This document shows positions 31,746 through 48,058 of a stretch of 64,000 bases of DNA, in pieces (the stretch's first letter is position 1; each line of letters begins with the position of its first letter). Under the pieces are notes generated by a model. It worked only from the letters and a program-made list of their open reading frames with translations, made no database searches and was not told where the DNA came from. Both the position numbers and the translations under genes were made by a program. Origin of the DNA: a virus; IMG/VR virus record IMGVR_UViG_3300027973_000044, positions 17,924-81,923 of that record, one strand, 5' to 3'.

Positions 31746-32501
31746 ATGGCTGGAACATACACATTTCATAGCAAATTGCACAGGGCAAGCCACCATACAA
31801 TCTCTGGTACTACTCTACCAGATGCAGGGTTGGATCCTATTGCATCTCAAACACAACCATTTATTGGCGTATTCTTCAATACCATTCCAGATTCATTGGG
31901 ATTCTTGACCATCGACACCAACAGCTATCAATGGTGGACAGCATATGCATCTGTGAGTACTTTGTCAGGTATCTGGGCACCTTCTCTGTCACTTTATAAC
32001 ACTGTTAATACATTGTCTACCAATTGGAATTTAGGTTATGTGGGTTATTCCAACTACTCACAAATCAGTAGTTTGTACGTTTCAGTGTACACCACAGTGA
32101 GCACATTCAGTGCTGATTGGAATGCACCGTTCATAATGTTTACCAATCTAGCGCAAGAGTATACTGCAGCCAAGACATTCTCTGGAACAGATCTCAGGAT
32201 TAACAGTGGCACAAACACAGTAATTTGGGATGTGTCTTCCAATCAAGTGACCTTCATTACACTTTCCAGCAACTTAAACTTTGCAAATCCTCTCAATCAT
32301 AAAAAAGGTGGCAACTATACATTGAATGTAATTCAAAGCGGTGCAGGGGGGTATGATATCAGATTTAGCACTGCATACAGATTTAACGATACAATTGCAT
32401 TGTCTGGTGTAATTAGTACACTGTCTGGCAGCCGTACAATAATTAATTTTATGTCAGACGGAACACTACTGTACGGGGATAGGGTAGTGTTCCGCGGATG
32501 A
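31746..32501 (+). CDS. Short fibre-like protein
   Basis: His-rich N-terminus, S-x-x-W 11-residue repeats, C-terminal GGNYTL.VIQ...SDGTLLYG domain. Confidence 0.6.
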   Translation: MAGTYTFHSKLHRASHHTISGTTLPDAGLDPIASQTQPFIGVFFNTIPDSLGFLTIDTNSYQWWTAYASVSTLSGIWAPSLSLYNTVNTLSTNWNLGYVGYSNYSQISSLYVSVYTTVSTFSADWNAPFIMFTNLAQEYTAAKTFSGTDLRINSGTNTVIWDVSSNQVTFITLSSNLNFANPLNHKKGGNYTLNVIQSGAGGYDIRFSTAYRFNDTIALSGVISTLSGSRTIINFMSDGTLLYGDRVVFRG

Positions 32502-34627
32502 GCAATTTTCTTTTTCATAACAAGTTTCACCAGGCAAACCATCATACCATTGCCACTCCTGGTCTTCCAGATAGTGCAACAGATCCCATTGCATCTCAGT
32601 CTGAACCATTTCAAGGAATATTCTACAATTACTTAAATGCTCTTGTGAATCTTTCTGCAATTGATGTTTCATATCTGGAAACATTCTTAACAGATTCTAT
32701 CACCACATTTGATGGATTATCAGTCAACACAATTCAGAGCATATATGCTGCAATCACAGCTAATGTATTTACAAACAGTCAGCAGTGGTTTGAGATGTAC
32801 ACTAATATCAATGCATTGAGTACCATATATGGTCTGTATCCAACTGTTTCAACCACTGTGAACACATACAGTGGCAACTGGAACTTGGGTTATGATTTTT
32901 ATAGCAGTCTCAATGCATTGAGCGCAAATTATTTCTCCACATACACCATGGTTAACACTTATAGCGCCAATTGGCCGTTCATCGATACAACTCTGAGACT
33001 TAATTTGATGCAACAGAATACGCGTTCCAAGAATTTCAGCGGCGTTAATATTACCAGCATAAGTGTTAATACTGCTGGTGTTTCGGCATATTGGAATTTG
33101 AGTGCAGCACAGTGTGCATTTTTCAGGCTCACAGGTACTACAGTATTTAAGAATATAGTTAATTCCAATAACAAGAAAAAAGGTGGTGAGTATACCCTTG
33201 TGCTGCAGCAAGACGGGTTTGGAAGCAGAAGTGTTACATTTGAAAGTGATTATGTATTTCCAACTGTGTATTTGGGCACAGTGTCTGCAGCCTCACTATA
33301 TGGCACAGGGTACAACACTTCTGGTCAACTGGGCTTAGGAAATACTAGCAATAGAAATGTATTTACTGCATTAACTGGCAATTGGTCACAGGTGATTTGT
33401 AGTACTGCTCATACCATGGCTCAGAGTGCCGGTACCACCAATTGGTTTGGTACAGGGTATAATGGCTTTGGACAATTAGGCTTGAATGATAATAGCAACA
33501 GAAATGTATTTACTGCATTAACAGGCAATTGGTCACAGATGGTGTGTGGTGGTGCTTATACCATGGCTCAGAGTGCCGGTACCACCAATTGGTTTGGTGC
33601 GGGTTTTAATTTTAACGGTGCATTGGGCCTTGGGGATAATAGCGATAGAAATGCACTCACACCGCTCACAGGCAATTGGTCACAGATGGTGTGTGGTGGT
33701 GCTCATACCATGGCTCAGAGCGCTGGCACCACCAAATGGTTTGGCACAGGTAGTAATAGCCAAGGTCAATTGGGACTAGGCGATGATGGCGCTGGTACCA
33801 ATAGAAATGTATTCACACCACTCACAGGCAATTGGTCACAGATGATATGTGGCAGGGCACACACCATGGCATTGTCTGCTGGTACCACCAAATGGTTTGG
33901 CACAGGTGCAAATGGTTACGGTCAACTGGGTCTAGATGATACTATCATCAGAAATGTATTTACTGCATTAACTGGCAATTGGTCGCAGATGGTTTGTGGT
34001 GCAGAGCATACTATGGCGCTAAGTGCTAATAACAAGTGGTTCAGTACTGGTAGGAATGTTGAAGGTCAACTAGGTCTAAATGATAATAGCGATAGAAATG
34101 TATTTACTGCATTAACTGGCGATTGGTCGCAGATGGTGTGTGGTTATTCTCATACCATGACCCAGAGTGCAGGTACTATCAAATGGTTTGGCACAGGACA
34201 AAATTTTTATGGTGAATTGGGTCTTAGTGACAATAGCAATAGAGATGTATTTACAATATTAACTGGTGATTGGTTACAAATGGCAAGCTCTTGTAATTGT
34301 ATTCATACTATGGCTTTTGATCTGACTACTACAGACTCATACAGGACCAATGTTGTTGCTCCAACTGCTCTGAGTGTGACTGTGATTCGCTTCACATGTG
34401 ATGGGAGCAAGTTGTATGGCAAGCCAACACCTTATTATTATGAGAGAGACACAATTTGGACGTATTTTGCAGGCCCTGGTGATCTTCACACCCCCAGCCC
34501 GGCTGAATTCTATATCAATGATTACTTCATACCCATCAATGGACTCACAGTCGCAGGTGTGGTGGTCCCAGCACAAGGGTATTCTGATGGTGGTGGCATA
34601 ACTGTAGTAGAGGGGCTTCCATCCTAA
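32498..34627 (+). CDS. Fibre-like protein carrying a 7-repeat RCC1/BLIP-II propeller
   Basis: Paralog of the upstream gene; seven GxNxxGQLGL...CGxxHTM repeats. Confidence 0.85.
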   Translation: MSNFLFHNKFHQANHHTIATPGLPDSATDPIASQSEPFQGIFYNYLNALVNLSAIDVSYLETFLTDSITTFDGLSVNTIQSIYAAITANVFTNSQQWFEMYTNINALSTIYGLYPTVSTTVNTYSGNWNLGYDFYSSLNALSANYFSTYTMVNTYSANWPFIDTTLRLNLMQQNTRSKNFSGVNITSISVNTAGVSAYWNLSAAQCAFFRLTGTTVFKNIVNSNNKKKGGEYTLVLQQDGFGSRSVTFESDYVFPTVYLGTVSAASLYGTGYNTSGQLGLGNTSNRNVFTALTGNWSQVICSTAHTMAQSAGTTNWFGTGYNGFGQLGLNDNSNRNVFTALTGNWSQMVCGGAYTMAQSAGTTNWFGAGFNFNGALGLGDNSDRNALTPLTGNWSQMVCGGAHTMAQSAGTTKWFGTGSNSQGQLGLGDDGAGTNRNVFTPLTGNWSQMICGRAHTMALSAGTTKWFGTGANGYGQLGLDDTIIRNVFTALTGNWSQMVCGAEHTMALSANNKWFSTGRNVEGQLGLNDNSDRNVFTALTGDWSQMVCGYSHTMTQSAGTIKWFGTGQNFYGELGLSDNSNRDVFTILTGDWLQMASSCNCIHTMAFDLTTTDSYRTNVVAPTALSVTVIRFTCDGSKLYGKPTPYYYERDTIWTYFAGPGDLHTPSPAEFYINDYFIPINGLTVAGVVVPAQGYSDGGGITVVEGLPS
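33299..34320 (+). repeat. Seven tandem ~147 bp repeats encoding RCC1 blades
   Basis: Near-identical DNA blocks, e.g. agaaatgtatttactgcattaactggcaattggtc, recur in successive units. Confidence 0.9.
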
Positions 34628-38125: not shown

Positions 38126-39604
38126 ATGAAATCAATCAGACCTACACAGTCTTACATTGATGAGTCTCGCGCACAAGCGTTGCTCGAAAAGTGGAAACCA
38201 GTTTTGGATTACACTTCGGCCAACGTTAAAGCCATCGAAGATGATCATACTCGTTTGAACACAGCCATGCTCTTGGAAAACCAAGAAGCTTGGTGCGTCA
38301 ATGAGGCTAATCAATCGGGTGGTGGTGCCGCTGGCACAGGTTCTGTCTTCGGCTCCAACGCCACAGGTAACTACGGGAACCAAATTCCCAATAGCTCACC
38401 TCAAGGTGATTGGTATGCTCAAGGCGATGCTCGTTTGCCTAAGATTCTCATTCCAATGATTCGTAGAACGTTCCCCGAGTTAATCACCAATGAAATTGTA
38501 GGCGTACAGCCCATGGGTGGACCAGTTGGTCTAGCCTTTGCTTTACGTTACAAGTATTCTCCATATCAGCTTGGCAACGATGGCATCGATGGTTCCGGCA
38601 CAAATGCTGGCAATCTTCTTGCCAATCCCCAACAAGCATCGCTTAACAAGGAGCTTGGTTACCAATACCTCGACACCCGCTACACTGGTACATCCAGCAC
38701 CACCCTAACCGGTGGCGCACCTGGGACAGACGCCGCAAGCCTCTTCCCTTGGATCAACCAAGATAACGGTGTGGCTCAACTTCTCAGCCAGTTCGAATTG
38801 ACGGGCAAAATCCCTCAGATCGAAGTCAGCTTTGAAAAGACAGCCGTCGAAGCCGGTACCCGCAGACTCGCTGCTCGCTGGTCGGTAGAACTCGAACAGG
38901 ATCTTAAGAACATGAACGGTATTGATATCGATACTGAGCTCACCAACGCTATGTCGTATGAGCTACAGGCCGAAATCGACCGTGAAATGATCGCTCGCAT
39001 GATCCAAGTCTCACTCAACGCTGGTGCTGGCACAGGATACTCCGTATGGAGCCCTGCTTCCGCAGACGGCCGTTGGTTGGTAGAGCGCAATCGCGATTTC
39101 TATCAGAGACTCATCATCGAGGCTAACAGAATTGCTGTTCGCAATCGTCGTGGTGCTGCCAACTTTATTGTTGCCACACCTCGCGTTTGCGCGATCCTCG
39201 AGATGCTTCCTGAGTTTCAATGGGTGCCAGTCCAAGGCAATGTCAACACTCAACCTGTTGGCGTAGCTAAGGTTGGTAACCTTGGTGGCAGATTCAACGT
39301 TTACCGTGATACACGTACAGAGGCCCAATATGAGGGTGGCTTACGTTCCGGTTACCGCGTTGAGTACGCTCTACTCGGATACAAAGGTCCGGAGTTTTAT
39401 GACACTGGTATCATCTATTGCCCTTACATCCCTGTAATGGTACAGAGAACCATTGGTCCTAATGACTTCTCGCCACGCGTTGGCTTGCTAACTCGTTATG
39501 GCGTTGTTGACAATATCTTCGGTGCTAATCTATATTATCACACGATTCTATTGTCCGGACTTGGTCAAGCGTTCACACCTGCAAGTGCTTCAGTTTATTT
39601 CTAA
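38126..39604 (+). CDS. Major capsid protein gp23-like
   Basis: LLEKWKPVLD, LLENQE, GVQPMGGPVGLAFALR, RRLAARWSVELEQDLK, EIDRE, YCPYIP and TRYG; AAGGAG Shine-Dalgarno. Confidence 0.98.
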   Translation: MKSIRPTQSYIDESRAQALLEKWKPVLDYTSANVKAIEDDHTRLNTAMLLENQEAWCVNEANQSGGGAAGTGSVFGSNATGNYGNQIPNSSPQGDWYAQGDARLPKILIPMIRRTFPELITNEIVGVQPMGGPVGLAFALRYKYSPYQLGNDGIDGSGTNAGNLLANPQQASLNKELGYQYLDTRYTGTSSTTLTGGAPGTDAASLFPWINQDNGVAQLLSQFELTGKIPQIEVSFEKTAVEAGTRRLAARWSVELEQDLKNMNGIDIDTELTNAMSYELQAEIDREMIARMIQVSLNAGAGTGYSVWSPASADGRWLVERNRDFYQRLIIEANRIAVRNRRGAANFIVATPRVCAILEMLPEFQWVPVQGNVNTQPVGVAKVGNLGGRFNVYRDTRTEAQYEGGLRSGYRVEYALLGYKGPEFYDTGIIYCPYIPVMVQRTIGPNDFSPRVGLLTRYGVVDNIFGANLYYHTILLSGLGQAFTPASASVYF

Positions 39605-39653
39605 AGCATTTGTTGGCAGCGAATAAGAAAAAATTCCCGGTACGTCCCGGTTT

Positions 39654-39683
39654 AAAAAGAGGCCTTTCGGGGCCTCTTTTTTT
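39654..39683 (+). terminator. Intrinsic terminator after the major capsid gene
   Basis: aaaaagaggcct-ttcg-gggcctc followed by a T7 run. Confidence 0.9.
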
Positions 39684-39703
39684 GTATTAAGCCAGTCAAA
39701 ATA

Positions 39704-39711
39704 TATAAATA
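39704..39711 (+). promoter_or_regulatory. T4-type late promoter
   Basis: TATAAATA 6 nt before ATG 39718. Confidence 0.75.
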
Positions 39712-39717
39712 ATACAT

Positions 39718-40803
39718 ATGGCCATTATACCGGTATCCGCTTTGAAGGATGCATTTGCAGATGGAGACACACCTGACTCAAATGATTTTATCAATTTAAT
39801 TGACACCACATGTGCTCTGCCTTCTGCAACCAACAGTAACATTGGATCCACTTACACAACAAACTTGACTCTCGTGCAAGGCATGACCGGGATCCCTGTG
39901 GTAATAAACGGTAGCACCTACTATCTTCCTGTGTTCACCACTTATGTGGCTCCAGATCAAGCAGCTTATACAGCCACTGTGAGGCAGACCTATTCAAATG
40001 CAGTCTTGGCAGAAACTGTGGGTGCAAGATGTGCCACATTCATACAGAGCGTTTGCGGATATGCGCCAGGTGATGTTGTCACAGCAGCCTGCATATGTTC
40101 AGATGATAAAAATGCTCCCATCTTCCCCAACAATACATTTGGTCAATACCCCACATCATTGCAACAATTTTCTGGACCATTTTTTGCTGGTGGCATTGGT
40201 GGTTATCCCTTCCCAGGCATTGTGGGTCTGTTTGCATGGATGAGCCATGTGACCACACCAGGTGCATTGTTTATCTATGTGCATCCCCACATTGGCATTA
40301 CTCAGAGTGGACAAGTGGGATTCATGAAGCGCAGAGGGCAGCAGGGCAATCTGTCTCAAACTTGTGGTGCAGTTAATGCAGCACAAGCCAGAATTGTTGG
40401 TACACTTAGTGCGACTCCTCCAACTTTTCCAAGTGCAGAATTCACCATCAATGATTTCCAACAATTCACCTTGGTGAATGCACTGTATTCTAACCGAACC
40501 ACCCGCAATGCATTGACAGCAGCTGCTCCGTTGCAGGGTGGCACATATGGCCAGAGAATGAAGATAGCCACTGATGCCATTCTGGTTGCAGCATTGAGTG
40601 CAGTGGAAACAATTTTACCCATATCTTATGGTGCTTTCTTTCAAGGTGAAAACACAGTGGATGTGTTTGTGCATGCAGGCACATTCATCAATGTGGACGA
40701 TGGGTACAGTGCTTACATAGACACCATTGCATTCAAGAAATACAATCCAGTCACACAGACATTCACCACCCTCACCAGCGCTTTCACAGCAGCTTTTGCC
40801 TAG
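39718..40803 (+). CDS. LCIB/LCIC-family (theta-type) carbonic anhydrase domain fused to a virion-type N-terminal segment
   Basis: ICSDD, GPF.AGGIGGYPFPG..G..A..SHV, FIYVHPHIGI..G..G..RRGQ and TCGA match the LCIB/theta-CA motif series; candidate Zn ligands Cys127, His191, Cys216. Confidence 0.8.
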   Translation: MAIIPVSALKDAFADGDTPDSNDFINLIDTTCALPSATNSNIGSTYTTNLTLVQGMTGIPVVINGSTYYLPVFTTYVAPDQAAYTATVRQTYSNAVLAETVGARCATFIQSVCGYAPGDVVTAACICSDDKNAPIFPNNTFGQYPTSLQQFSGPFFAGGIGGYPFPGIVGLFAWMSHVTTPGALFIYVHPHIGITQSGQVGFMKRRGQQGNLSQTCGAVNAAQARIVGTLSATPPTFPSAEFTINDFQQFTLVNALYSNRTTRNALTAAAPLQGGTYGQRMKIATDAILVAALSAVETILPISYGAFFQGENTVDVFVHAGTFINVDDGYSAYIDTIAFKKYNPVTQTFTTLTSAFTAAFA

Positions 40804-40862
40804 TCCGCATAATCTAGATCCCCAGCAGTAGCAGATTGTATGTATTGAGCTAAATTATTGTA

Positions 40863-41471
40863 TTGAAATTTAAAGATATATTTGTATTTGAAAAGCGGTT
40901 GGCAGAGTTCGCCGGTGCACCATTTGCTGTTTCCACATGTTGTTGTACACATGCACTAGAACTATGCTTCCGTATTCTAAAACCCAATTATGTAGAGTTT
41001 TCATGTCATACCTACATGGGAATCATCATGATGCTCAAAAATTTACATGTTCCCTTTCGAATGATTAACGATCAATGGCAGGGTGAATATAATTTTCGCA
41101 ATAGCCCCATATGGGACTGTGCCAGGAAGTTTGTACCTAACATGTATGTGTCAGGATCTTACAAATGCGTTAGTTTTGGTGAAAACAAACCTCTTGATCT
41201 TGGCCGTGGGGGTGCAATTCTCCTGGATAATGAACAACACTACAAGCTTCTAACCATGTTAAAATTTGATGGCAAAGATGTACAATATGAGCCATGGATA
41301 GATCAACAATATTTTGATGTGGGGTATCACTACAAGATGAATAACCGCGAATGCATTGTTGGTTTAGACAAACTTAATGAATTCATAACCAAAGGTGACT
41401 TCTCTTATTCCCATACACCATATAGAGACTGTCGCAGAATGATAGTCAAAGGCATGCCACTGTTTACATGA
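40863..41471 (+). CDS. Short DegT/DnrJ/EryC1-family PLP protein
   Basis: FEKRLAEFAG..AV..CTHALEL, WDCA, SFGENKPL..GRGGAIL and GYHYKM; C-terminal domain absent; TTG start. Confidence 0.8.
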   Translation: MKFKDIFVFEKRLAEFAGAPFAVSTCCCTHALELCFRILKPNYVEFSCHTYMGIIMMLKNLHVPFRMINDQWQGEYNFRNSPIWDCARKFVPNMYVSGSYKCVSFGENKPLDLGRGGAILLDNEQHYKLLTMLKFDGKDVQYEPWIDQQYFDVGYHYKMNNRECIVGLDKLNEFITKGDFSYSHTPYRDCRRMIVKGMPLFT

Positions 41472-42337
41472 AGATAGATTACGTATTTTCGTTTGCTAAT
41501 CATTTTTATAAAGAGCTCTACAAGCAGCATTTTGATTGCGCTCTTATTAATCCGCGCAATGTTCATGAGCTACAGTCTGTGGATACAGCAAAGAATATTA
41601 TATTTTTATTTGGAGACCCATACACTCTCAACTATATCAATAGGAGCAATCTTTCTGGCAAGAATATAATGTTTTTAAGACGGCATGAGTTCTATGAAAA
41701 TAATTTTGCATTGCTTCAAAAAAACCGTGTTAAGATTCAGCATTTTTTTACTTTAAATTCTTTCTTTCAAAACAAATTAAGAGACTCATACGGTATTGAG
41801 TCCACCATAGAGAAAAATTATCTGGATGAACAGCTATGGACATACAAAGGAAGAGGCCATGGCAAAGAGATTGCTTGGGTGGGTGAATTTCAGCAACGCA
41901 AATCACCAGATTATTTGAGTGAATTATTGTCTTGTTTGCCGGATTATAACATCCATTGTGCCATTTCACCAGGTCCCTCGAAACAACTGTATGTAGATTT
42001 TCTACAAAACCATAATCATAGCAATTTATTCCTGCATGATGATATTAATACTCAAGAGAAAATGAACAAATGGTTGGATGATAAAAACTATTTGGTAACC
42101 ACATCCATATCAGAGGGCTTGCCTAATAATGTCCTGGAGGCTCTGGCCAAAGGTATTAAGCCCGTAGTAAGAGATTACCCTGGCAATATATTTCATAAAT
42201 TTGCATATGAAAATATTTCTCAATTGAAATTGCACTTATCCGGTGAATACAATTCACTAGAATATCGGCACATGATTGAAGAGCATTATGGATTAAAGCA
42301 TTTTCTAGACTTTAGAGACAAGGTTATTGAGCTCTAA
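41468..42337 (+). CDS. GT-B glycosyltransferase (GT4-like)
   Basis: WVG....RKSPD and TSISEGLPNNVLEALAKG (EX7E motif). Confidence 0.85.
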   Translation: MKIDYVFSFANHFYKELYKQHFDCALINPRNVHELQSVDTAKNIIFLFGDPYTLNYINRSNLSGKNIMFLRRHEFYENNFALLQKNRVKIQHFFTLNSFFQNKLRDSYGIESTIEKNYLDEQLWTYKGRGHGKEIAWVGEFQQRKSPDYLSELLSCLPDYNIHCAISPGPSKQLYVDFLQNHNHSNLFLHDDINTQEKMNKWLDDKNYLVTTSISEGLPNNVLEALAKGIKPVVRDYPGNIFHKFAYENISQLKLHLSGEYNSLEYRHMIEEHYGLKHFLDFRDKVIEL

Positions 42338-43292
42338 CAAAGGACTTTTGTATCTTCATGTCAAAGAGGTGCGGGCATGCAGTCTTGGGGCATACAATTG
42401 GTGAATCAAATAGTTTGATTCTTAGGTTTGGATTCTCTTGAAGATTGCCAAAATATCTCTGTCGGCAACAAGCGCCCCAGATGGAACCATCTTCTTTGAT
42501 GTTAAGAGCATTTTTGCCTGCGTTACAGAAAATGCCTCTGAAGTTGTGAAAGTTATTTGCTAATATCTCCTGGCCGTCAAATGGGGTCTTTCTGCCATCA
42601 AAATATTCAACCTCTATTCTATCATTTTCAAAATTATATTTTCTATTGGATGGATTGTGCTTGATGAAATCTATTTGCTCTTGATTGTAAAGTGGAGTAA
42701 AGTGTCTTTTGTAATCATTAACATCAAGAACTCCTTTGTTATTGACAGTGATACCGTCTATTTTGAAGAACTCTTTTGATGCCTCTATTGCTACGTCCCA
42801 ATGTTCAGGGTCCATCAACACATGCAATTCAATATGCTTTTTCTTTTTTAAAAATATTTCAAAGATGCTTTTGAAGTGATCTATGTTTGCATACCTTGGG
42901 TGAAAGCTTGGATACAGAATATCAATCAAATCTACAGCTTTAGACCAGAATTCTAAATTATTACCCAGATTTGTATTCATTGCCACCAGAAAGTTAATGG
43001 ATCTCAGGTATGACATCACTTCTTCAACTCCTTTATAGAAACTGGGCTCACCTCCAGTGAGGGTTATCTTTCTTTGAGGCTTGGATTGTATGCAGGGGTT
43101 ATCTTTATATAAGTTATCAAAGAAATTTATATATATTTCAGAAGAAATATGCGGAAACATACCTTTGTGAAGAACAGGGGGGCAGTAATTGCATCGTTGA
43201 TTGCATAGATTATTAATTACAAAATTAATTGCAAAGATGTCATTGGTGATGCCTTTGATGATGGGTTGGTTAATATGGTTTTGCATGTTCAC
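42324..43292 (-). CDS. Radical SAM protein with C-terminal Cys cluster
   Basis: CNQRCNYC, LTGGEP, CNAG..ACC..CPKTAC; start could be 43286. Confidence 0.9.
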   Translation of the reverse strand: MNMQNHINQPIIKGITNDIFAINFVINNLCNQRCNYCPPVLHKGMFPHISSEIYINFFDNLYKDNPCIQSKPQRKITLTGGEPSFYKGVEEVMSYLRSINFLVAMNTNLGNNLEFWSKAVDLIDILYPSFHPRYANIDHFKSIFEIFLKKKKHIELHVLMDPEHWDVAIEASKEFFKIDGITVNNKGVLDVNDYKRHFTPLYNQEQIDFIKHNPSNRKYNFENDRIEVEYFDGRKTPFDGQEILANNFHNFRGIFCNAGKNALNIKEDGSIWGACCRQRYFGNLQENPNLRIKLFDSPIVCPKTACPHLFDMKIQKSFVRAQ

Positions 43293-44076
43293 ACTTCCAG
43301 CACAATGTATTGGATTTATTGTTACTCAATGAATTTACGATATGTTTATAAGTTTCAGAATTAACAACTTCTTCGTAGGAGCTTTCTATTAGATTGCCTA
43401 TCTTATGCTCCAAACTCCAGTCCATGCAACAAAGATACACATCTCCATTTGGTAATAAAACGTGTTGTTTGATTTTGTTTGTAGAGCATCTTATGGCCAT
43501 ATTTGCGGTGTTATCTATTTTTTTAAAGCTATCAACATTACCAGCTCTACTATTCCATCTGAAGTAATCAGGGGTTAGAAAGGAGATTTTTGCTCGGGTT
43601 TTTACTAGTAAGGGTTGTATTGAAGGGTGTGGCTCTTTTCCAAAGAAAACTATTGCATCGCTATTCTCTAGGATTTGCAGACATTTTTCAACATTATGAA
43701 TATAATTATCATCAATTACTAAGTTCATTGAATTATCATTAACCGGCAAATGCAAGATAATGTTATCATACTCTCGATTCAGAATTGTATTAATATTATC
43801 CTGGGACGCTTTATAGAGGGTTGTAGATATTCTTGTGTAATGCCCTCTGCTTCTGCAGAGGGCCACCATCTTGAAACAATCTTTATGAAAGAAAGGTTCA
43901 GAGAACCCTGTAAAATGTATTCTTGTAGAGATTGGCAGTTTGGTTAAAACGTGACTAAAATTTTCTAAAGATAGCTTCTTTATATGAGAATTGTATTTAA
44001 ATAAAAAAGAATCTTGTGGGCAATAAGAGCATTTTATGCTGCACCCCGCTATAGTGGTTATCTCTAATGCATCCAT
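43270..44076 (-). CDS. Radical SAM/SPASM protein
   Basis: CSIKCSYCPQ, GFSEP, NSRAGN, LPNGDVYLCCMDW and CWKC. Confidence 0.9.
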   Translation of the reverse strand: MDALEITTIAGCSIKCSYCPQDSFLFKYNSHIKKLSLENFSHVLTKLPISTRIHFTGFSEPFFHKDCFKMVALCRSRGHYTRISTTLYKASQDNINTILNREYDNIILHLPVNDNSMNLVIDDNYIHNVEKCLQILENSDAIVFFGKEPHPSIQPLLVKTRAKISFLTPDYFRWNSRAGNVDSFKKIDNTANMAIRCSTNKIKQHVLLPNGDVYLCCMDWSLEHKIGNLIESSYEEVVNSETYKHIVNSLSNNKSNTLCWKCEHAKPY

Positions 44077-44090
44077 ATATAATATGATAT

Positions 44091-44786
44091 ATGCCCAATA
44101 TTGTTTTACTAGCAATTAGTTACCGATCTGGTTCTAATTGTCTTAGATCAATATTGGACCAGAATAACGACATATCTGCTAAAGGTGAAATATTTAGGCC
44201 TTATTTTAAGTTGAACAATGTTAATCGTGACAGTCTTCTGGGTGAGATTGACACACGTCTGAATAGATTTAGACACAGGGAAGACAAAAATAAAGTTTTC
44301 TTATATACCAGTGTTGTTGATGAGATATTGAAGCTAGAAGAATATGACTTGATCCGCAGCATTTTACCTGACAAATCAATCTTTCTATATCGGGAAGATC
44401 TCTTGGAACAGTACTGTTCAGTCAAGGTGGGGAGTGTGACAGGTGTATACCAGGACACAGAGCAATCCAAACAAGAAAAACAAAAAATAAGAATAGAGTT
44501 TAATCTTAATGAATATTTGAATTTTGTTGCCAGAATGAATCGTCATAGAGACTTCTTTGTTGCCTTTTATAAGAAATATAAGATAAACTATATTACTGTA
44601 GAATACAAGAGCATATTGAAGCGAATAGAGGAAATATTTAAATTTTTAGGTTTAGACTATAAAGGCGAATTACCGACTACTATTAAATCTGAAAGTCGAT
44701 CATTGCACGAAATTATAATTAATTTTAAAGATGTTCCTACTAATATGAATCATAAGCTAGTAGTTGATGACATTATTCCTGCTTAA
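44091..44786 (+). CDS. Sulfotransferase (Stf0-like)
   Basis: PAPS-binding loop YRSGSNCL, GEIF, LYREDLLEQYCS and EYK..IFKFLG. Confidence 0.75.
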   Translation: MPNIVLLAISYRSGSNCLRSILDQNNDISAKGEIFRPYFKLNNVNRDSLLGEIDTRLNRFRHREDKNKVFLYTSVVDEILKLEEYDLIRSILPDKSIFLYREDLLEQYCSVKVGSVTGVYQDTEQSKQEKQKIRIEFNLNEYLNFVARMNRHRDFFVAFYKKYKINYITVEYKSILKRIEEIFKFLGLDYKGELPTTIKSESRSLHEIIINFKDVPTNMNHKLVVDDIIPA

Positions 44787-45650
44787 TGTTCTTCTGTCAA
44801 TGGGGCAAACCTTGCAGATATCGTTTTGCTTTCTGTTTGCTAGAATTTTAGCAAAAAAATCTTTTGATTTTTCTGAATTGAATATCTCACTAATAGTTTG
44901 TTTGTTTGCGTTGCCTATTATTACTTGTCCTTGGTAATCATGGCAACATGGATTACATTCACCATTCCAATTTATAACAAATGAACCAGAAAAAATTGAG
45001 CAACTATTGGGTATTTCTTCGGTAACTTTTTGTTGTGTTTGTTTATTAATTTGTTCTGTTTCAGTATATTCTGCCATATTAAAATTAGGCAGCTTGTAAT
45101 ATATGTTATCGTATAACCCTGAGAATTTATTTTTAATATTGATCAGATCTTGTGTATTGTAAGAAAATAAAACTGTTTGTATCTTTATTTTGGGTCGAGA
45201 AGGCATGTCACCATATTTGTCGAAATAGTATTTCATTCCTTCGTGTATCTTGTCTAGATCTACACCCTTTCTGTATGTTGCATTTAATTCTTTGGTTGAC
45301 CCATCAATACTAACAACACACTCATTCAGCTTGCTCTTGGCTAGTAAGTCTATATCTTCTTGTTTGTAGAAGACTAACCCGTTTGTGGATGTCCTGTGGT
45401 ACACATTCTCTGGGATCATTTGATAGAGCTGGGACCACCTGGGGTGCAGAAAAGGCTCTCCATAATTGAAAGAGACTATTTGCACCTTGTGATTCAATTC
45501 TCTTACCTCATTCATTATTTTTTGAAATAATTCATTGGAAATGAACCCTTTTTTTCTATCCAAAGAATCAGAGCCTGTAGGACATAGGGGGCATTTGGCA
45601 TTACACGTGTTGGTAAGCTCTATCATTATGGAGCTAAGATGTCTATTCAT
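44757..45650 (-). CDS. Radical SAM/SPASM protein
   Basis: IELTNTCNAKCPLCP, NYGEPFLHP, STNG, SIDG, INWNGECNPCCHD and CKVC. Confidence 0.92.
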   Translation of the reverse strand: MNRHLSSIMIELTNTCNAKCPLCPTGSDSLDRKKGFISNELFQKIMNEVRELNHKVQIVSFNYGEPFLHPRWSQLYQMIPENVYHRTSTNGLVFYKQEDIDLLAKSKLNECVVSIDGSTKELNATYRKGVDLDKIHEGMKYYFDKYGDMPSRPKIKIQTVLFSYNTQDLINIKNKFSGLYDNIYYKLPNFNMAEYTETEQINKQTQQKVTEEIPNSCSIFSGSFVINWNGECNPCCHDYQGQVIIGNANKQTISEIFNSEKSKDFFAKILANRKQNDICKVCPIDRRTLSRNNVINY

Positions 45651-46374
45651 ATACGGGATGAACAAATTTATGTTCTTTTAATTTTAGTTTTGCTTCTTTT
45701 TCATCTATAAATTCATCATAAAAATAACGAGCCCTTCCTTTCATATAAATTATAGAATAAAATTCAGCATGATCATATAGCTCTATGTTGAGATCTTGGC
45801 AAGCTATGCCCATGAGCAATTCCGTTGACAGCATATATTCACCAGGTAGCCCTCTCGCTAGAAAACTGCTTATTCTACTTGTTAGAAATTTATCGTCTTC
45901 AAAGTACTTTGCCGTTTTAAATGTCTGTATCACATTGGATCCAATTCCAAAGATTCCATTTTGTATGAATTTGGGTCGTATTAAATTTATGGGCACCTCA
46001 CCATCGTAAATCCTTCTATCAAGAGTAGATTTGAATAGAGTTCCAAACACAGTATTCTTTAACTCATTATGTAGCTTTATAGTGCCTTGCACTCTTGAAT
46101 CTGGGTCTGCCTTTATTACAACATCTGTGTTGAGATCATCATACACATTGATTATGTTGCGAAAAAAAGCACCTGGTGTTGCATTGATATGGGATCTATC
46201 AAATAGATAATATCTGAAATTATTATCGTGGCAGTATTTTCTTATATCTGGGTCATCATTTCCATCGCTCATAACAGATGTGGGACTATTAGGATAATAT
46301 TTTTGTATCTGTAAAGCACTTGTTTTTAATAAATCAAAATCTTTATACACCGGTACTATGAAGCCTATATTCAT
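45643..46374 (-). CDS. GT-A glycosyltransferase (GT2-like)
   Basis: FIVPVYKD, MSDGNDD and a DxD motif in KADPDS. Confidence 0.65.
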   Translation of the reverse strand: MNIGFIVPVYKDFDLLKTSALQIQKYYPNSPTSVMSDGNDDPDIRKYCHDNNFRYYLFDRSHINATPGAFFRNIINVYDDLNTDVVIKADPDSRVQGTIKLHNELKNTVFGTLFKSTLDRRIYDGEVPINLIRPKFIQNGIFGIGSNVIQTFKTAKYFEDDKFLTSRISSFLARGLPGEYMLSTELLMGIACQDLNIELYDHAEFYSIIYMKGRARYFYDEFIDEKEAKLKLKEHKFVHPVYE

Positions 46375-47282
46375 ATTTCTAATACTTTTTTAAATATATT
46401 ATTATTGTGGTTTCTTGCATTATTTTGAAATGCTGTCAACTCTTCTGTTAGTATATTGTACTTATTTTCATTATTCAAGATATCTATAATGTTACAGTCG
46501 GCAGAATCAATTTGCTTCAAGATATTATATTCTAGAAATTTCTTATTGGCAATGAGAGGGATTTTATTGGCTATACTATGTGTGAGAGATTCTGATGTTT
46601 TAATGCTAGTATAATCCACTTTGGAGCCATCGTAAGGTATGAGTAAGAACTTGAACCCGGCAATTTGTTTGTAAAAATCTGCATGGCTACACATGTCTAT
46701 TGCTTCTGCATTGCTTGAATGTATTTGCTTGATAGTCTTCTTGGCTCCTTCACCTAGTAACTTTATGCTGCAATTATTTTTTTGCATAAAAGAACTTATA
46801 TATTCTATGGATATCTTATTTTCAAAAAAACGAGAAGTTATTCCAATTATATTTTCCTTGCGTGCATTTAAGTTTAGCGGTGTTTCTGTTTGAAAGAAGT
46901 AGTTTTCGCTAAATGGCTTTTCATATACTCCGTTGGCTATATTTTTGGAGAGTGGAAAATGCTTTTTAATTGTGCTTTCACCATGACCCAATGGCCTATG
47001 ATGTACAAATATAAGATTGGTTGTCTCTCGAAAAACAGGATTTGTATGAAACTCAGGAATTCTATTGTTAGATTCAAGTGCAGTTATAATTATGGAAGTA
47101 TCAAAGCGCGGCACATGTGTCAAAGATAGTTTGTAGAGGTTACACAATTCTTTGAAGCCATACTTATCATTAGGGGCATGATGGTAGAACATAGGTGATA
47201 ATCCCAAACACTGTAAAGATTTGTATATTGATAGTGCTGTGGCGTGGTGATATTCTGTATTGACAATGATGCCTATTCTCAT
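46371..47282 (-). CDS. Hypothetical protein, possibly GT-B fold
   Basis: Coupled within the glycosyltransferase operon; FLLIP..KTSESLTHSIANKIPLI resembles a GT-B C-domain. Confidence 0.45.
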   Translation of the reverse strand: MRIGIIVNTEYHHATALSIYKSLQCLGLSPMFYHHAPNDKYGFKELCNLYKLSLTHVPRFDTSIIITALESNNRIPEFHTNPVFRETTNLIFVHHRPLGHGESTIKKHFPLSKNIANGVYEKPFSENYFFQTETPLNLNARKENIIGITSRFFENKISIEYISSFMQKNNCSIKLLGEGAKKTIKQIHSSNAEAIDMCSHADFYKQIAGFKFLLIPYDGSKVDYTSIKTSESLTHSIANKIPLIANKKFLEYNILKQIDSADCNIIDILNNENKYNILTEELTAFQNNARNHNNNIFKKVLEI

Positions 47283-48058
47283 TTATATTTCTCGTATAAG
47301 TTTTTTAACGTAGATGTTATCTCATTTGAATCTTCTCCCGCTTTCGATAGCAAGGAGAATACAAATGAACTAAAACATTTTTTTGATTCAGAAGACATCC
47401 ACGGTTTGCTATTGCCGTGAAAATGCAGTATAGCTATATCTTTCATTGTATCTTTTGTCACTTGGCTTGTTACTGTGTTGTATTTTTGAGGCAGAAAGGT
47501 CACAGTATCGCGAAAATACAGATTAAATGCAGACTGATCATTATACCATCTTCTTTTTTTAGCCAGATCTATCAAATTATCTTTGTGTTTTCTGTGTATT
47601 GTTTCCTTGGATAAGATCATGAGACCGCAATTAAAGAAATTCTTTTCAAGATAATTTAAATCCAAAAGCATGTCGGGGTATTTTCTGCAAGCTGCAAAAT
47701 CACCGGAAAAAAGTAATAGATCTTTTATGTCTTGCAATACAAGCATGTCTGAATCTATCATGACGATTTTGTCGTAGTTAAGATGGGACAACTCAAACAC
47801 ATCAAATCTATAATACAGGTTGTAGTTGTATTCTTCTTGTATATCTTTGCATTGAATGTAATCCTCTTTTTTAACATGAATTATTTTGATTTTATTATAT
47901 ATGTTACACAATTCAGAGATAGATTCATCTGATAGATGCCCATCAGAAAGAATTACATAATCCAGATCAAACCATGGGTTATTAATCAGTAAGCTTTTGA
48001 GTAGAGCTCTCATGCCTGGCATGAAATCATCATTTAGAGCAGTAAAAAAGGCTGTCAT
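47279..48058 (-). CDS. Glycosyltransferase family 8
   Basis: IDSDMLVLQDI, FNCGLM, DQSAFN, YN and ILHFHGNSKPW. Confidence 0.9.
   Translation of the reverse strand: MTAFFTALNDDFMPGMRALLKSLLINNPWFDLDYVILSDGHLSDESISELCNIYNKIKIIHVKKEDYIQCKDIQEEYNYNLYYRFDVFELSHLNYDKIVMIDSDMLVLQDIKDLLLFSGDFAACRKYPDMLLDLNYLEKNFFNCGLMILSKETIHRKHKDNLIDLAKKRRWYNDQSAFNLYFRDTVTFLPQKYNTVTSQVTKDTMKDIAILHFHGNSKPWMSSESKKCFSSFVFSLLSKAGEDSNEITSTLKNLYEKYK

What the first reader, a model, noticed from the sequence alone, without database searches (positions are those of the whole stretch)
39704..40803. Late-expressed LCIB/theta-type carbonic anhydrase fused to a virion-type anchor, directly after the major capsid gene
Seen: residues about 85-350 carry the motif series ICSDD / GPF.AGG..GYPF.G..G..A..SH / HPHIGI / RRGQ / TCGA / DFQ / INVD. 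The gene has its own TATAAATA and sits right after the gp23 terminator. Known: this series marks the LCIB/LCIC (theta-CA) family, which binds Zn through Cys-His-Cys and acts in algal CO2-concentrating mechanisms and some bacteria; all three candidate ligands (C127, H191, C216) and D129 are present. The first ~75 aa (LKDAFADGDTPDSNDFINLID and IPVVINGSTYYLPVF) look like segments of phage fibre/decoration proteins, not of an enzyme. Inference: this may be a carbonic anhydrase displayed on the particle, altering local CO2/pH at the host surface, or a CA fold reused as a structural domain. I know of no described phage virion protein like this.
Basis: partly seen in the sequence, partly recalled or inferred. 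Interest (0 to 1): 0.85.

Follow-up and report, generated by a model that had tools for sequence, protein, structure and literature searches.

The report
Phage LCIB-type carbonic anhydrase with handle
An uncultured freshwater T4-like phage encodes, right after its capsid gene, an apparently intact algal-type (LCIB) zinc carbonic anhydrase with an 80-residue N-terminal add-on that may tie it to the virus particle, but neither its activity nor its place on the particle has been tested.

Summary
ORF 39718-40803 (361 aa) follows the gp23-like capsid gene, a 12-bp terminator hairpin and a TATAAATA box. Residues about 81-361 are an LCIB/theta-type carbonic anhydrase domain (Pfam PF18599, E 3e-23; Foldseek to PtLCIB4, E 4e-15, TM 0.86). 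C127, D129, H177, H191, R205 and C216 are invariant in 134 of 134 family members. The protein belongs to a phage-only branch with a diagnostic 8-residue insertion. A homodimer model puts the active-site motifs at the interface.

Residues 1-80 occur only on these phage LCIB proteins. Relatives carry at least ten unrelated N-terminal types, and 23 of 134 carry none. Three other types are shared with the N-termini of neighbouring RCC1, gp9-like and fibre-like proteins, which suggests interchangeable attachment handles. The window's own type has only a weak match, to the N-terminus of a Flavobacterium phage structural protein.

Virion attachment is therefore inferred, not shown. The gene also looks like a moron at a module boundary. 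Complete relatives have no photosynthesis genes, so a role in a CO2-concentrating mechanism is unlikely.

I found no paper on phage LCIB proteins. This scan has already reported the same thing on other DNA (27 notes in at least 18 genomes).

The parts
38126..39604 (+). gp23-type major capsid gene directly upstream (context)
   Evidence: phrog_138 major head protein, E 1.2e-82; 32-34% identity to cyanomyovirus gp23
39654..39681 (+). terminator-like hairpin (12 pairs, loop of 4, T run) between the capsid gene and the LCIB gene
39704..39711 (+). TATAAATA box ending 6 nt before the ATG; T4-type late-promoter-like, no Shine-Dalgarno in the gap
   Evidence: the same TAAATA-4-7 nt-ATG layout at 12 of 45 genes against 0.086 expected
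39718..40803 (+). CDS, 361 aa: N-terminal handle plus LCIB-type carbonic anhydrase domain
39718..39957 (+). residues 1-80: N-terminal handle. Holds a conserved motif around D23-F24-x-N26-L27-I28-D29, a low-confidence Ser/Thr/Asn-rich linker and a beta-hairpin at 58-71
   Evidence: 27 invariant columns in 12 sequences; dN/dS 0.06-0.28; pLDDT 37-61; found only on phage LCIB proteins; weak match to the N-terminus of a Flavobacterium phage structural protein
39958..40800 (+). residues 81-361: LCIB/theta-CA domain, modelled as a homodimer
   Evidence: Pfam PF18599; pLDDT mostly 84-98; Foldseek to 5b5z/5b5y E 4e-15, TMt 0.86; dimer model
40096..40104 (+). codons C127-S128-D129: first Zn ligand and catalytic Asp. 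They align with C46-S47-D48 of PtLCIB4
   Evidence: numbering calibrated on the S47R mutant chain; C127 and D129 invariant in 134 of 134
40117..40155 (+). residues 134-146: insertion specific to the phage branch, with invariant G142 and near-invariant Q143 and P145. It lies in the modelled dimer interface beside the active site
40246..40248 (+). codon H177, aligned with H88 of PtLCIB4 (the position of the H88A mutant)
40288..40290 (+). codon H191, second Zn-ligand position (H102 of PtLCIB4 by count)
40330..40332 (+). codon R205, invariant Arg of the RRG motif
   Evidence: in the modelled interface
40363..40365 (+). codon C216, third Zn-ligand position (C126 of PtLCIB4 by count)

Best explanation
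The gene encodes a homodimeric, zinc-dependent carbonic anhydrase of the LCIB/theta type. It belongs to a branch of that family found only in phages. It is its own late transcription unit, with a TAAATA box 6 nt before the ATG, behind the capsid gene's terminator. The 80-residue N-terminal part is a lineage-specific handle that ties the enzyme dimer to the virion. In this lineage and its sister lineage the gene sits beside head genes (capsid or portal). The particle would thus carry a few copies of a ready-made CO2/bicarbonate-interconverting enzyme to the next host. There the enzyme would speed bicarbonate supply for carboxylation-dependent biosynthesis (carbamoyl phosphate, purine ring, fatty acids, anaplerosis), or equilibrate inorganic carbon at the envelope. 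SHOWN: family membership, fold, intact ligand and catalytic positions, strong purifying selection, phage-only monophyly, and modular handles in relatives that are shared with fibre-like neighbours. SUPPORTED BY A MODEL ONLY: the dimer. INFERRED: enzymatic activity, virion attachment, delivery, and the benefit to the phage.
For: Family and fold: PF18599 at 82.7 bits against a cut-off of 25. Foldseek finds 8 PDB matches at E<=0.001, all LCIB-family chains, best E 4.2e-15 with TMt 0.86. Active site: C127, D129, H177, H191, R205 and C216 are invariant in 134 of 134 family sequences, down to about 35% identity. The same columns are near-invariant in 60 cellular representatives. Selection: dN/dS of the domain is 0.03-0.08 in the 9 of 11 pairs that gave a value; of the handle, 0.06-0.28 in 10 of 11. 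The conserved end is the C-terminal domain and the variable end is the N-terminus, the opposite of a receptor-binding fibre. Dimer: score 0.94, best of 3 controls 0.00. The mark was reached by 20 of 30 proteins solved as pairs of one chain and by 1 of 23 solved as single chains. The runs agree in at least 98% of contacts and the partner's pLDDT is at least 95. My own alignment was used, so these counts hold only roughly. The interface holds residues 128-134, 152-160, 164-177, 205-209 and 217-218. Phage-only branch: the 46 of 110 rows with the G-Q insertion form one side of a branch (SH-like support 100). A scan of 185,579 species genomes gave one 1.5-kb MAG contig. Handles: the alignment shows at least 10 unrelated N-terminal types. 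The N-termini of three types (clusters of 20, 21 and 10 members) match residues 1 to about 36 of neighbouring non-LCIB proteins (E down to 5e-16). These neighbours are an RCC1 propeller with a gp9-like connector end, a Thr/Pro-linker protein and ATASY-repeat fibre-like proteins. Context of the window's handle type: directly after the capsid gene in 5 of 39 IMG/VR loci and directly after the portal gene in 13 of 39. The late-type box is shared with tail and baseplate genes. Contigs identical to the gene occur in 2 of 4 lake metatranscriptome runs laid (X3, X5). This shows presence in RNA libraries, not proven transcription.
Against: There is no proteomic or structural evidence that the protein is in particles. 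No phage carrying it is cultured: no match in 50,697 phage records. The window's own handle type has no paralogue in the 82-kb contig or in three relatives' records. Those records are only 20-40% complete. Its likeness to a known structural protein is weak (probability 41%; tblastn E about 5). The handle is modelled with low confidence (pLDDT 37-61). The gene sits at a module boundary, behind a terminator and with its own promoter box, which is also the signature of a moron or auxiliary gene. In the portal lineage the downstream genes have no structural annotation. 23 of 134 family members have at most 9 residues ahead of the domain. The tandem long+short cassettes in two complete genomes lie among small minus-strand genes of unknown function. 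CA activity is untested, and Chlamydomonas LCIB and LCIC themselves showed no CA activity in vitro according to a review (passages of PMC5876011). A few enzyme molecules on a particle outside a cell cannot shift an equilibrium, so the benefit has to be argued through delivery or a local disequilibrium.
Confidence: 0.5

Rival explanations
1. Soluble late auxiliary metabolic gene (a moron). The carbonic anhydrase works in the infected cell's cytoplasm and is not part of the particle. The N-terminal part serves oligomerisation, regulation or localisation inside the cell.
For: The gene has its own promoter box behind a terminator, at the 3' edge of the head module. In the portal lineage it is followed by unannotated small genes and a minus-strand endonuclease. 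23 of 134 members have no N-terminal extension. The tandem cassettes lie among small genes of unknown function. Viral alpha-, beta- and gamma-CA genes have been reported as auxiliary genes (passages of bioRxiv 10.64898/2026.01.21.700432).
Against: N-terminal segments shared with RCC1, gp9-like, Thr/Pro-linker and fibre-like neighbours are hard to explain for a cytoplasmic enzyme. The late-type box is shared with tail and baseplate genes, whereas precursor supply is needed early. The branch is phage-only and old, not a recent host pick-up.
Confidence: 0.3
2. A virion-mounted enzyme with changed chemistry. The Cys-His-Cys zinc site of the LCIB fold, reshaped by the phage-specific insertion, acts on something other than CO2. 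Candidates are another small heterocumulene (as the COS and CS2 hydrolases of the beta-CA fold do; recalled) or a group on the host surface.
For: An 8-residue insertion with invariant G142 and near-invariant Q143 and P145 lies in the modelled dimer interface next to the CSDD motif, and cellular members lack it. The Pfam match covers only profile positions 14-166 of 223 at 82.7 bits, against 300-470 bits in cellular proteins. The handles are shared with fibre-like proteins, which often carry surface-active enzymes.
Against: Every residue that is invariant in the cellular family is kept. No residue new to the phage branch suggests different catalysis. No substrate can be named from the data.
Confidence: 0.12
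3. A catalytically idle domain. The LCIB fold serves as a receptor-binding or purely structural tip, as the alpha-CA-like fold does in vaccinia D8 (recalled).
For: Chlamydomonas LCIB and LCIC lacked CA activity in vitro (passages of PMC5876011). The gene sits among virion genes.
Against: All ligand and catalytic positions are invariant in 134 of 134 sequences, and dN/dS is 0.03-0.08. The domain is the conserved end of the protein and the handle the variable one, the reverse of receptor-binding proteins.
Confidence: 0.05

Closest known systems
PtLCIB4 of Phaeodactylum tricornutum (PDB 5b5y, 5b5z, 5b60) and the LCIB_C_CA proteins of PDB 6kfs and 9vzj
   Same: Same Pfam family and fold. Cys-His-Cys ligand positions, catalytic Asp, and the H88 and RRG positions all align. 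The dimer model has the active site at the interface.
   Different: Only 17-23% identity over the fold. The phage protein has an 8-residue insertion with G142-Q143 and an 80-residue N-terminal handle absent from cellular members. It is encoded by a phage, not by an alga or bacterium. R52 of PtLCIB4 is Ala here, but that position does not reach 80% conservation in the cellular family either.
Chlamydomonas LCIB/LCIC complex of the algal CO2-concentrating mechanism (PDB 5k5w, 5b5x)
   Same: Same family (E 2e-3; E 8e-9 to 2e-8). The tandem long+short paralogue pairs in some phages recall the LCIB-LCIC pairing.
   Different: There is no sign of a phototrophic host: psbA in 0 of 5 related records, hli and NblA in 0 of 5 records (this contig and four relatives), two complete genomes included each time. 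The phage protein has no chloroplast targeting and is far diverged.
Viral carbonic anhydrase genes reported so far (alpha, beta and gamma classes in metagenomic vOTUs; beta-CAs of giant viruses)
   Same: A virus-encoded CA-fold gene (passages of bioRxiv 10.64898/2026.01.21.700432; weak BFVD matches to Pandoravirus and Harvfovirus CAs, E 1.5e-3 and 7.8e-3).
   Different: Those belong to other classes and are read as host-derived auxiliary genes. This one is of the LCIB/theta type, in a phage-only branch, with modular N-terminal handles, next to virion genes.
Vaccinia virus D8 envelope protein (recalled, no call)
   Same: A carbonic-anhydrase-like fold on a virus particle.
   Different: As I recall, D8 has the alpha-CA fold, has lost its zinc ligands and binds chondroitin sulfate. 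Here the ligands are invariant.
N-terminal handle of Flavobacterium phage structural proteins (e.g. vB_FspM_lotta8-1 gp046, 635 aa)
   Same: Residues 5-32 align with residues 4-31 of that protein at 43% identity. That handle occurs in 17 phage records: 13 Flavobacterium, 2 crAss-like and 2 Lactobacillus phage records, the last at E 0.7.
   Different: The likeness is short and weak (probability 41%). 'Structural protein' in that record is an annotation by similarity, not a proteomic result that I saw.

Membership tests
LCIB / theta-type carbonic anhydrase family (Pfam PF18599 LCIB_C_CA) | Profile match above the curated threshold | tested here: met
   82.7 bits against a cut-off of 25, E 3e-23, residues 109-273 on profile positions 14-166 of 223
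LCIB / theta-type carbonic anhydrase family (Pfam PF18599 LCIB_C_CA) | Beta-CA-like fold as in solved LCIB structures | tested here: met
   AF2 model, pLDDT 82.6 and pTM 0.79. All 8 PDB matches at E<=0.001 are LCIB-family chains; best is 5b5z at E 4.2e-15, TMt 0.86, 272 columns
LCIB / theta-type carbonic anhydrase family (Pfam PF18599 LCIB_C_CA) | Cys-His-Cys zinc ligands (the identity of the ligands in PtLCIB4 is recalled; the paper is not held) | tested here: met
   C127, H191 and C216 align with C46, H102 and C126 of PtLCIB4 (numbering calibrated on the S47R chain). They are invariant in 134 of 134 sequences. Zinc binding itself is not testable here.
LCIB / theta-type carbonic anhydrase family (Pfam PF18599 LCIB_C_CA) | Catalytic Asp next to the first Cys, plus the His and Arg that a review names as important (His162/161 and Arg194/193 of CrLCIB/LCIC) | tested here: met
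   D129, H177 (aligned with H88 of PtLCIB4) and R205 are invariant in 134 of 134 and near-invariant in 60 cellular representatives. Review passages. The equivalence of R205 with Arg194 is my inference.
LCIB / theta-type carbonic anhydrase family (Pfam PF18599 LCIB_C_CA) | Dimer with the active site at the subunit interface | tested here: met
   Model only: score 0.94, best of 3 controls 0.00. The mark was reached by 20 of 30 pairs of one chain and by 1 of 23 single chains. Like dimers are probably solved (5b5y holds two chains), so the pass may come from memory.
LCIB / theta-type carbonic anhydrase family (Pfam PF18599 LCIB_C_CA) | CO2 hydration activity | not testable with these tools
   Needs recombinant protein and a stopped-flow or 18O-exchange assay
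Algal or cyanobacterial CO2-concentrating mechanism component (functional system) | Acts in a phototroph that concentrates inorganic carbon | tested here: not met
   psbA in 0 of 5 related records (G000 not among them); hli and NblA in 0 of 5 records (G000 and four relatives). Two 100%-complete genomes were included each time, and the Synechococcus control was positive. The host remains unknown.
Virion proteins carrying a shared N-terminal attachment handle | The same N-terminal segment on other virion-type proteins of the same or related phages | tested here: inconclusive
   Met for three other handle types in relatives. For the window's type there is no paralogue in G000 or in three relatives' records, apart from an internal hit at E 0.002; those records are 20-40% complete. 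There is a weak match to the N-terminus of a Flavobacterium phage structural protein.
Virion proteins carrying a shared N-terminal attachment handle | Presence in purified particles | not testable with these tools
   No cultured phage holds the gene
Phage moron / auxiliary metabolic gene | Own promoter and terminator at a module boundary, and close kinship to host genes | tested here: inconclusive
   An upstream terminator and the gene's own box are present. No terminator-like site was found behind the gene. Kinship to host genes is not met: the branch is phage-only.
Inactive CA-fold attachment proteins (vaccinia D8 type; recalled) | Loss of metal ligands | tested here: not met
   Ligand positions are invariant in 134 of 134

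The most novel reading that the evidence does not exclude
A phage-only clade of active theta-type carbonic anhydrases is mounted on virus particles through interchangeable N-terminal handles. The same plug-in handles carry RCC1 propellers and fibre-like proteins. Tailed phages of lakes would then ferry a CO2/bicarbonate enzyme to, or into, the next host. That would be the first inorganic-carbon enzyme known as a phage virion component.
Probability: 0.4. Interest if true: 0.8.

Novelty: new variant of a known kind. Interest (0 to 1): 0.62.

Why it matters
LCIB-type carbonic anhydrases are known from algal CO2-concentrating mechanisms and from some bacteria. I found no paper that places them in phages. 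Here they form a large phage-only branch: 136 protein clusters at E<=0.001 and 39 IMG/VR loci. The catalytic residues are perfectly kept. The genes sit next to capsid, portal or baseplate genes and carry swappable N-terminal handles.

If the enzyme rides on the particle, phages would deliver a ready-made metabolic enzyme for inorganic carbon. That would be a new class of virion cargo. It would also point to a general handle-plus-cargo system in large freshwater phages.

If it is instead a cytoplasmic auxiliary gene, it still shows that bicarbonate supply limits phage production in hosts that appear not to be cyanobacteria. Either way the protein is small, dimeric and easy to express, so the main question can be tested directly.

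Tried and rejected

2. Searches with the handle alone (residues 1-80) found only phage LCIB proteins: 7 of 21 scored candidates at near lengths, and 14 hits among 8000 scored candidates with the 12-sequence profile at longer lengths. No other architecture carrying this handle was found. The word index limits sensitivity.

3. tblastn of the handle against phages gave 8 records at E 3-8. I did not count this as evidence by itself.

4. ESM Atlas on residues 1-80 gave a best score of 0.78, below the noise level stated by the tool. The T4_gp9_10_N lead at rank 4 was not borne out by Pfam on the handle (0 families at E<=1).

5. PHROGs on ten family members with other handles gave 0 families. NCBIfam gave nothing relevant.

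6. Folding P0043 to see its 134-residue extension failed: pLDDT about 30 over residues 1-132. No fold search was made on it.

7. Capsid-targeting peptide idea (T4 internal proteins, cleavage after Leu/Ile-x-Glu; recalled). Residues 1-84 hold no Glu at all, and the first L-x-E lies inside a confidently folded helix. Rejected.

8. Cyanophage/CCM idea. psbA: 0 of 5 related records (G000 not among them). hli and NblA: 0 of 5 records, G000 included. Rejected as the leading reading, though fragments cannot prove absence.

9. The weak internal hit of the handle profile in the 1617-aa protein (E 0.002, window 23609-23710) is not N-terminal and rests on an F-x-L-I-D-S-T-like word. I treat it as chance.

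10. Read laying. All four RNA runs are contigs, so depth cannot rank genes. Contig word depth was 2.7-4.2 on the LCIB gene and 34-422 on the capsid gene; I draw no expression level from that. No contig of any of the four runs covered 40876-41600. Cover was next to none on 39636-39729 (mean word depth 1.02 in the bin 39636-39759 of X3, 0 in the other three runs). I use this only as a reason not to assume uniform DNA carry-over, not as evidence.

11. Jin et al. 2016 (PNAS) is not held. The roles of the PtLCIB4 residues are recalled or taken from PDB entry titles and from passages of the review PMC5876011. Supplementary files were not consulted and could bear on residue roles.

13. Paper searches for a phage LCIB; 5 papers hold both terms, 3 were listed, none on the subject; 17 hold the terms, 15 listed, none of the LCIB type by title or abstract; 7 papers, all on algae or plants. 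Searches are general LCIB literature.
Full report
THE OBSERVATION. The ORF at window 39718-40803 (+) gives a 361-residue protein. The gene upstream (38126-39604) is a gp23-type major head protein (phrog_138, E 1.2e-82). It is 32-34% identical to cyanomyovirus gp23.

Upstream of that gene lie a head-completion-like gene and a prohead protease (phrog_218, phrog_207). Two further ORFs sit between the protease and the capsid gene. I read the second as a scaffold by position only, because PHROGs gave nothing for either. A terminator-like hairpin of 12 pairs lies at 39654-39681, and TATAAATA lies at 39704-39711, 6 nt before the ATG.

TATAAATA as such is not enriched: 8 found against 6.64 expected, and 40 of 100 shuffles reach 8. 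The layout is another matter. A TAAATA box ends 4-7 nt before the start codon at 12 of 45 called genes, mostly tail, baseplate and fibre-like genes. Only 0.086 such cases are expected if the window's 61 TAAATA sites fell at random (a simple model that ignores AT-rich upstream regions). So the gene carries the same start-proximal box as the structural genes. That this box is a late promoter is an inference from T4 (recalled).

WHAT THE PROTEIN IS. Pfam gives PF18599 LCIB_C_CA, 82.7 bits against a cut-off of 25, E 3e-23. Eight solved LCIB-family chains match by sequence: 6kfs at 1.4e-14, 9vzj at 1.1e-10, PtLCIB4 5b5y at 3.1e-10, and Chlamydomonas LCIB and LCIC at 2e-3.

An AlphaFold2 model built on a 77-sequence alignment has pLDDT 82.6 and pTM 0.79. 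Ten-residue block means from residue 81 are mostly 84-98. The exceptions are 54 for block 131-140 and 80 for the last residue. Blocks 1-80 score 37-61. In Foldseek against the PDB, all 8 matches at E<=0.001 are LCIB-family chains. The best is 5b5z at E 4.2e-15, with target-normalised TM 0.86 over 272 columns. Ordinary beta-carbonic anhydrases follow at E of 2e-3 and above.

The phmmer alignment to PtLCIB4 was calibrated on the S47R mutant chain. It puts C127-S128-D129 on C46-S47-D48. By count along the chain, H177 falls on H88 (the H88A mutant position), H191 on H102 and C216 on C126. That C46, H102 and C126 are the zinc ligands is recalled, because the primary paper is not held. [quoted passage not shown] It names a His and an Arg as important (passages of PMC5876011).

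A PHAGE-ONLY BRANCH WITH AN UNTOUCHED ACTIVE SITE. The word-indexed search found 136 protein clusters at E<=0.001; all 120 listed carry PF18599. The exhaustive search found 563 representatives at E<=0.001. I aligned the window protein with the first 133 proteins by id (the 120 listed and the first 13 new ones). C127, D129, H177, H191, R205 and C216 are identical in 134 of 134. All columns that are near-invariant in 60 cellular-type representatives are also kept in 34 phage-type representatives.

Phage-type sequences share an 8-residue insertion with invariant G142 and near-invariant Q143 and P145. On a FastTree of 110 rows, from which the insertion's own columns were dropped, the 46 rows with the insertion form one side of a branch with SH-like support 100.

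The long hits of 500-1500 residues are tandem-LCIB proteins joined to other domains (DUF1275, cNMP-binding, PAP_fibrillin, Na/Ca exchanger), not phage fibres. I take them to be eukaryote-type on the basis of those domains. A scan of 185,579 species genomes found one relative, on a 1.5-kb MAG contig. No cultured phage holds the gene: tblastn gave no match in 50,697 records. BFVD holds only weak giant-virus beta-CA matches, and PHROGs has no family for it.

Pairwise dN/dS among 18 close homologues is 0.03-0.08 for the domain (9 of 11 pairs gave a value) and 0.06-0.28 for the handle (10 of 11 pairs).

A model of two copies of residues 80-361 scored 0.94, with the best of 3 controls at 0.00. The mark was reached by 20 of 30 proteins solved as pairs of one chain and by 1 of 23 solved as single chains. 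The runs agree in at least 98% of contacts, and the partner's pLDDT is at least 95. My own alignment was used, so the counts hold only roughly. Similar dimers are probably solved, so the pass may reflect likeness only. The interface contains 128-134, most of the insertion, 152-160, 164-177, 205-209, 217-218 and 245-249. The conserved motifs of both subunits thus line the active-site cleft, as in beta-CAs.

THE N-TERMINAL PART. Residues 1-80 are conserved among 12 close relatives (27 invariant columns). Searches with this part alone or as a profile returned only phage LCIB proteins. Cellular homologues therefore lack it.

Across the family the N-terminus is a swappable module. In the 134-sequence alignment, 23 sequences have at most 9 residues ahead of the domain. 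The rest fall into at least ten sequence-unrelated types; the largest clusters have 21, 20, 16 (the window's type), 15 and 10 members.

Three of these types recur at the N-termini of neighbouring proteins that have no LCIB domain:

- The MPNVPDFR type is found on a 480-aa protein with a gp9-like connector end (phrog_677), on an 847-aa RCC1 propeller protein, on a 550-aa protein with Thr/Pro-rich linkers, and on three smaller proteins in L018, L019 and L022 (E down to 5e-16).
- A second type is found on 245-aa proteins of L035 and L036.
- A third group is found on two fibre-like proteins of L039. One of these has ATASY repeats.

This is the pattern of a common attachment handle with exchangeable cargo.

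For the window's own type I found no such paralogue among the ORFs of 39 loci plus the 82-kb contig, nor in G000 and three relatives' records. Those records are only 20-40% complete. The best outside likeness is to the N-terminus of a 635-aa 'structural protein' of Flavobacterium phage vB_FspM_lotta8-1. Residues 5-32 align with its residues 4-31 at 43% identity, with hhalign probability 41% and E 2.8e-4. That handle occurs in 17 phage records: 13 Flavobacterium, 2 crAss-like and 2 Lactobacillus phage records, the last at E 0.7. This is a weak lead, both to function and to a Bacteroidota host.

GENOMIC CONTEXT. Of the 39 IMG/VR loci, 5 (L001-L004, L008) have the gene directly after the capsid gene, as here. 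Thirteen (L005-L007, L009-L017, L023) carry the same handle type and have the gene directly after the portal gene (phrog_213, E 2.6e-107). L018, L021 and L022 have it inside the RCC1/gp9-like set. L024-L029 have a tandem pair of a long, handle-bearing paralogue and a short, handle-less one. This pair is present in both complete genomes searched, G003 and G004.

Context does not settle the matter. In the window the gene lies at the 3' edge of the head module. It comes before an island of a DegT-like protein, glycosyltransferases and radical SAM/SPASM enzymes. In the portal lineage the downstream genes have no structural annotation. The tandem cassettes lie among small minus-strand genes. A gene with its own promoter box behind a terminator is also what a moron looks like.

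HOST AND HABITAT. The record is an 81,923-base viral contig, estimated 39% complete, with GC 38.7%. The stretch occurs in freshwater and lake metagenomes and in six lake metatranscriptome runs.

psbA was sought in five related records (G001-G005). hli and NblA were sought in G000, G001, G003, G004 and G005. Each search gave 0 of 5, with two 100%-complete genomes of 203 and 217 kb included, while the Synechococcus control was positive. A typical cyanomyovirus is therefore unlikely, and with it a role in a CO2-concentrating mechanism.

Contigs identical to the LCIB gene occur in 2 of 4 RNA runs laid (X3: 39730-40100, 40344-40499, 40483-40811; X5: 40172-40437, 40655-40849). This shows presence in RNA libraries, not proven transcription, and contig depth cannot rank genes.

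MECHANISM. I commit to the following, at about 0.5. The protein is a dimeric zinc carbonic anhydrase, made late and tied to the particle by its handle. In this lineage the attachment site is probably near the head. The particle then carries the enzyme to the next host.

Shown: family, fold, intact site, purifying selection, phage-only monophyly, and handle modularity in relatives. Supported by a model only: the dimer. Inferred: activity, attachment, delivery and benefit.

The most plausible benefit is faster bicarbonate supply for carboxylations that feed nucleotide and lipid synthesis. As I recall, bacterial growth at ambient CO2 depends on a CA, and flavobacteria rely on anaplerotic bicarbonate fixation. 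A surface role at the envelope is weaker, since a catalyst cannot shift an equilibrium.

Rivals: a soluble late auxiliary gene (0.3), a virion enzyme with altered chemistry shaped by the insertion (0.12), and an idle structural or binding domain (0.05). The last is disfavoured by the invariance of every catalytic position.

COMPARISON AND NOVELTY. The protein is a member of the LCIB/theta-CA family by every sequence and fold criterion that I could test. It is not a CCM component by context. The nearest virus analogies are the alpha-, beta- and gamma-CA auxiliary genes reported from metagenomes (passages of bioRxiv 10.64898/2026.01.21.700432), the giant-virus beta-CAs and, from memory, the inactive CA-like D8 protein of vaccinia. 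None of these is of the LCIB type or carries swappable handles.

Full-text searches found no paper on a phage LCIB protein. This scan, however, has reported the same kind of gene before on other DNA: 27 notes in at least 18 genomes, with follow-ups that reached the same 'partly supported' verdict. I saw these only after my own analysis, and they agree with it.

- dN/dS values for the domain and the handle;
- the dimer model with controls;
- the insertion-defined clade test;
- the absence of photosynthesis genes from complete relatives;
- the long+short tandem pairs;
- the presence of the gene in lake RNA libraries.

VERDICT. This is a new variant of a known kind: an LCIB-type CA in a phage-only, handle-bearing form. 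Interest is 0.62.

Noticed in passing
window 2474-59402 (for example 2489, 3081, 4914, 13062(-), 13123, 23787, 26697, 34638, 39718, 56347(-), 59388(-)): A TAAATA box ends 4-7 nt before the start codon at 12 of 45 called genes, with no Shine-Dalgarno in the gap at 11 of the 12 (gene 2489 has a GGAG). Random placement would give 0.086. This suggests leaderless or near-leaderless late mRNAs. The capsid gene instead has a classical AAGGAG and no box within 40 nt.
   Followed up: partly
L018:5120-10573, L019:7860-13127, L022:4012-10744, L021:4417-8891: Sets of adjacent genes share one N-terminal segment of about 35 residues (MPNVPDFR type) but differ in their bodies: an RCC1 propeller, a gp9-like connector end, Thr/Pro-rich linker proteins, the LCIB domain, and small proteins. 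It looks like a handle-plus-cargo system of virion proteins.
   Followed up: partly
window 31746-34627: Two adjacent genes share an N-terminus rich in His (F-H-x-K-x-H-x-x-x-H-H-T). The longer one is an RCC1-type propeller protein (phrog_7220). This is another shared handle, within the window's own phage.
   Followed up: no
window 40863-48933: Directly after the LCIB gene lies an island holding a DegT-like aminotransferase fragment, GT1 and GT8 glycosyltransferases and three radical SAM/SPASM enzymes. Part of it is conserved behind the LCIB gene in L001, L003 and L008.
   Followed up: partly
window 39621-39625: RNA-library contigs covering the capsid gene stop at 39622 (X3), 39625 (X5, followed by adapter letters) and 39621 (X8). 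That is 17-21 nt after the stop codon and before the predicted hairpin at 39654. It may be a 3' end or an assembly break. No DNA run was laid for comparison.
   Followed up: no
G003:C1:12974-14677, G004:C1:194033-195903, G005:C1:3294-5173 (loci L026, L028, L029): Tandem LCIB paralogues: a long one with an N-terminal extension followed by a short one with 6-7 residues ahead of the domain. Both keep all catalytic positions. They may form a heterodimer with a single handle.
   Followed up: partly
window 15471-18995 and 18923-23776: A 1174-aa ORF overlaps by 73 nt the TTG start called for the 1617-aa ORF, so the true start of the latter is probably further downstream. The 1617-aa protein has a divergent InlB B-repeat (Flg_new_2) match.
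   Followed up: no
window 23609-23710: Near the C-terminus of the 1617-aa protein there is a weak match (E 0.002 for one genome) to positions 14-47 of the LCIB handle profile, built around an F-x-L-I-D-S-T-like word. Probably chance.
   Followed up: partly
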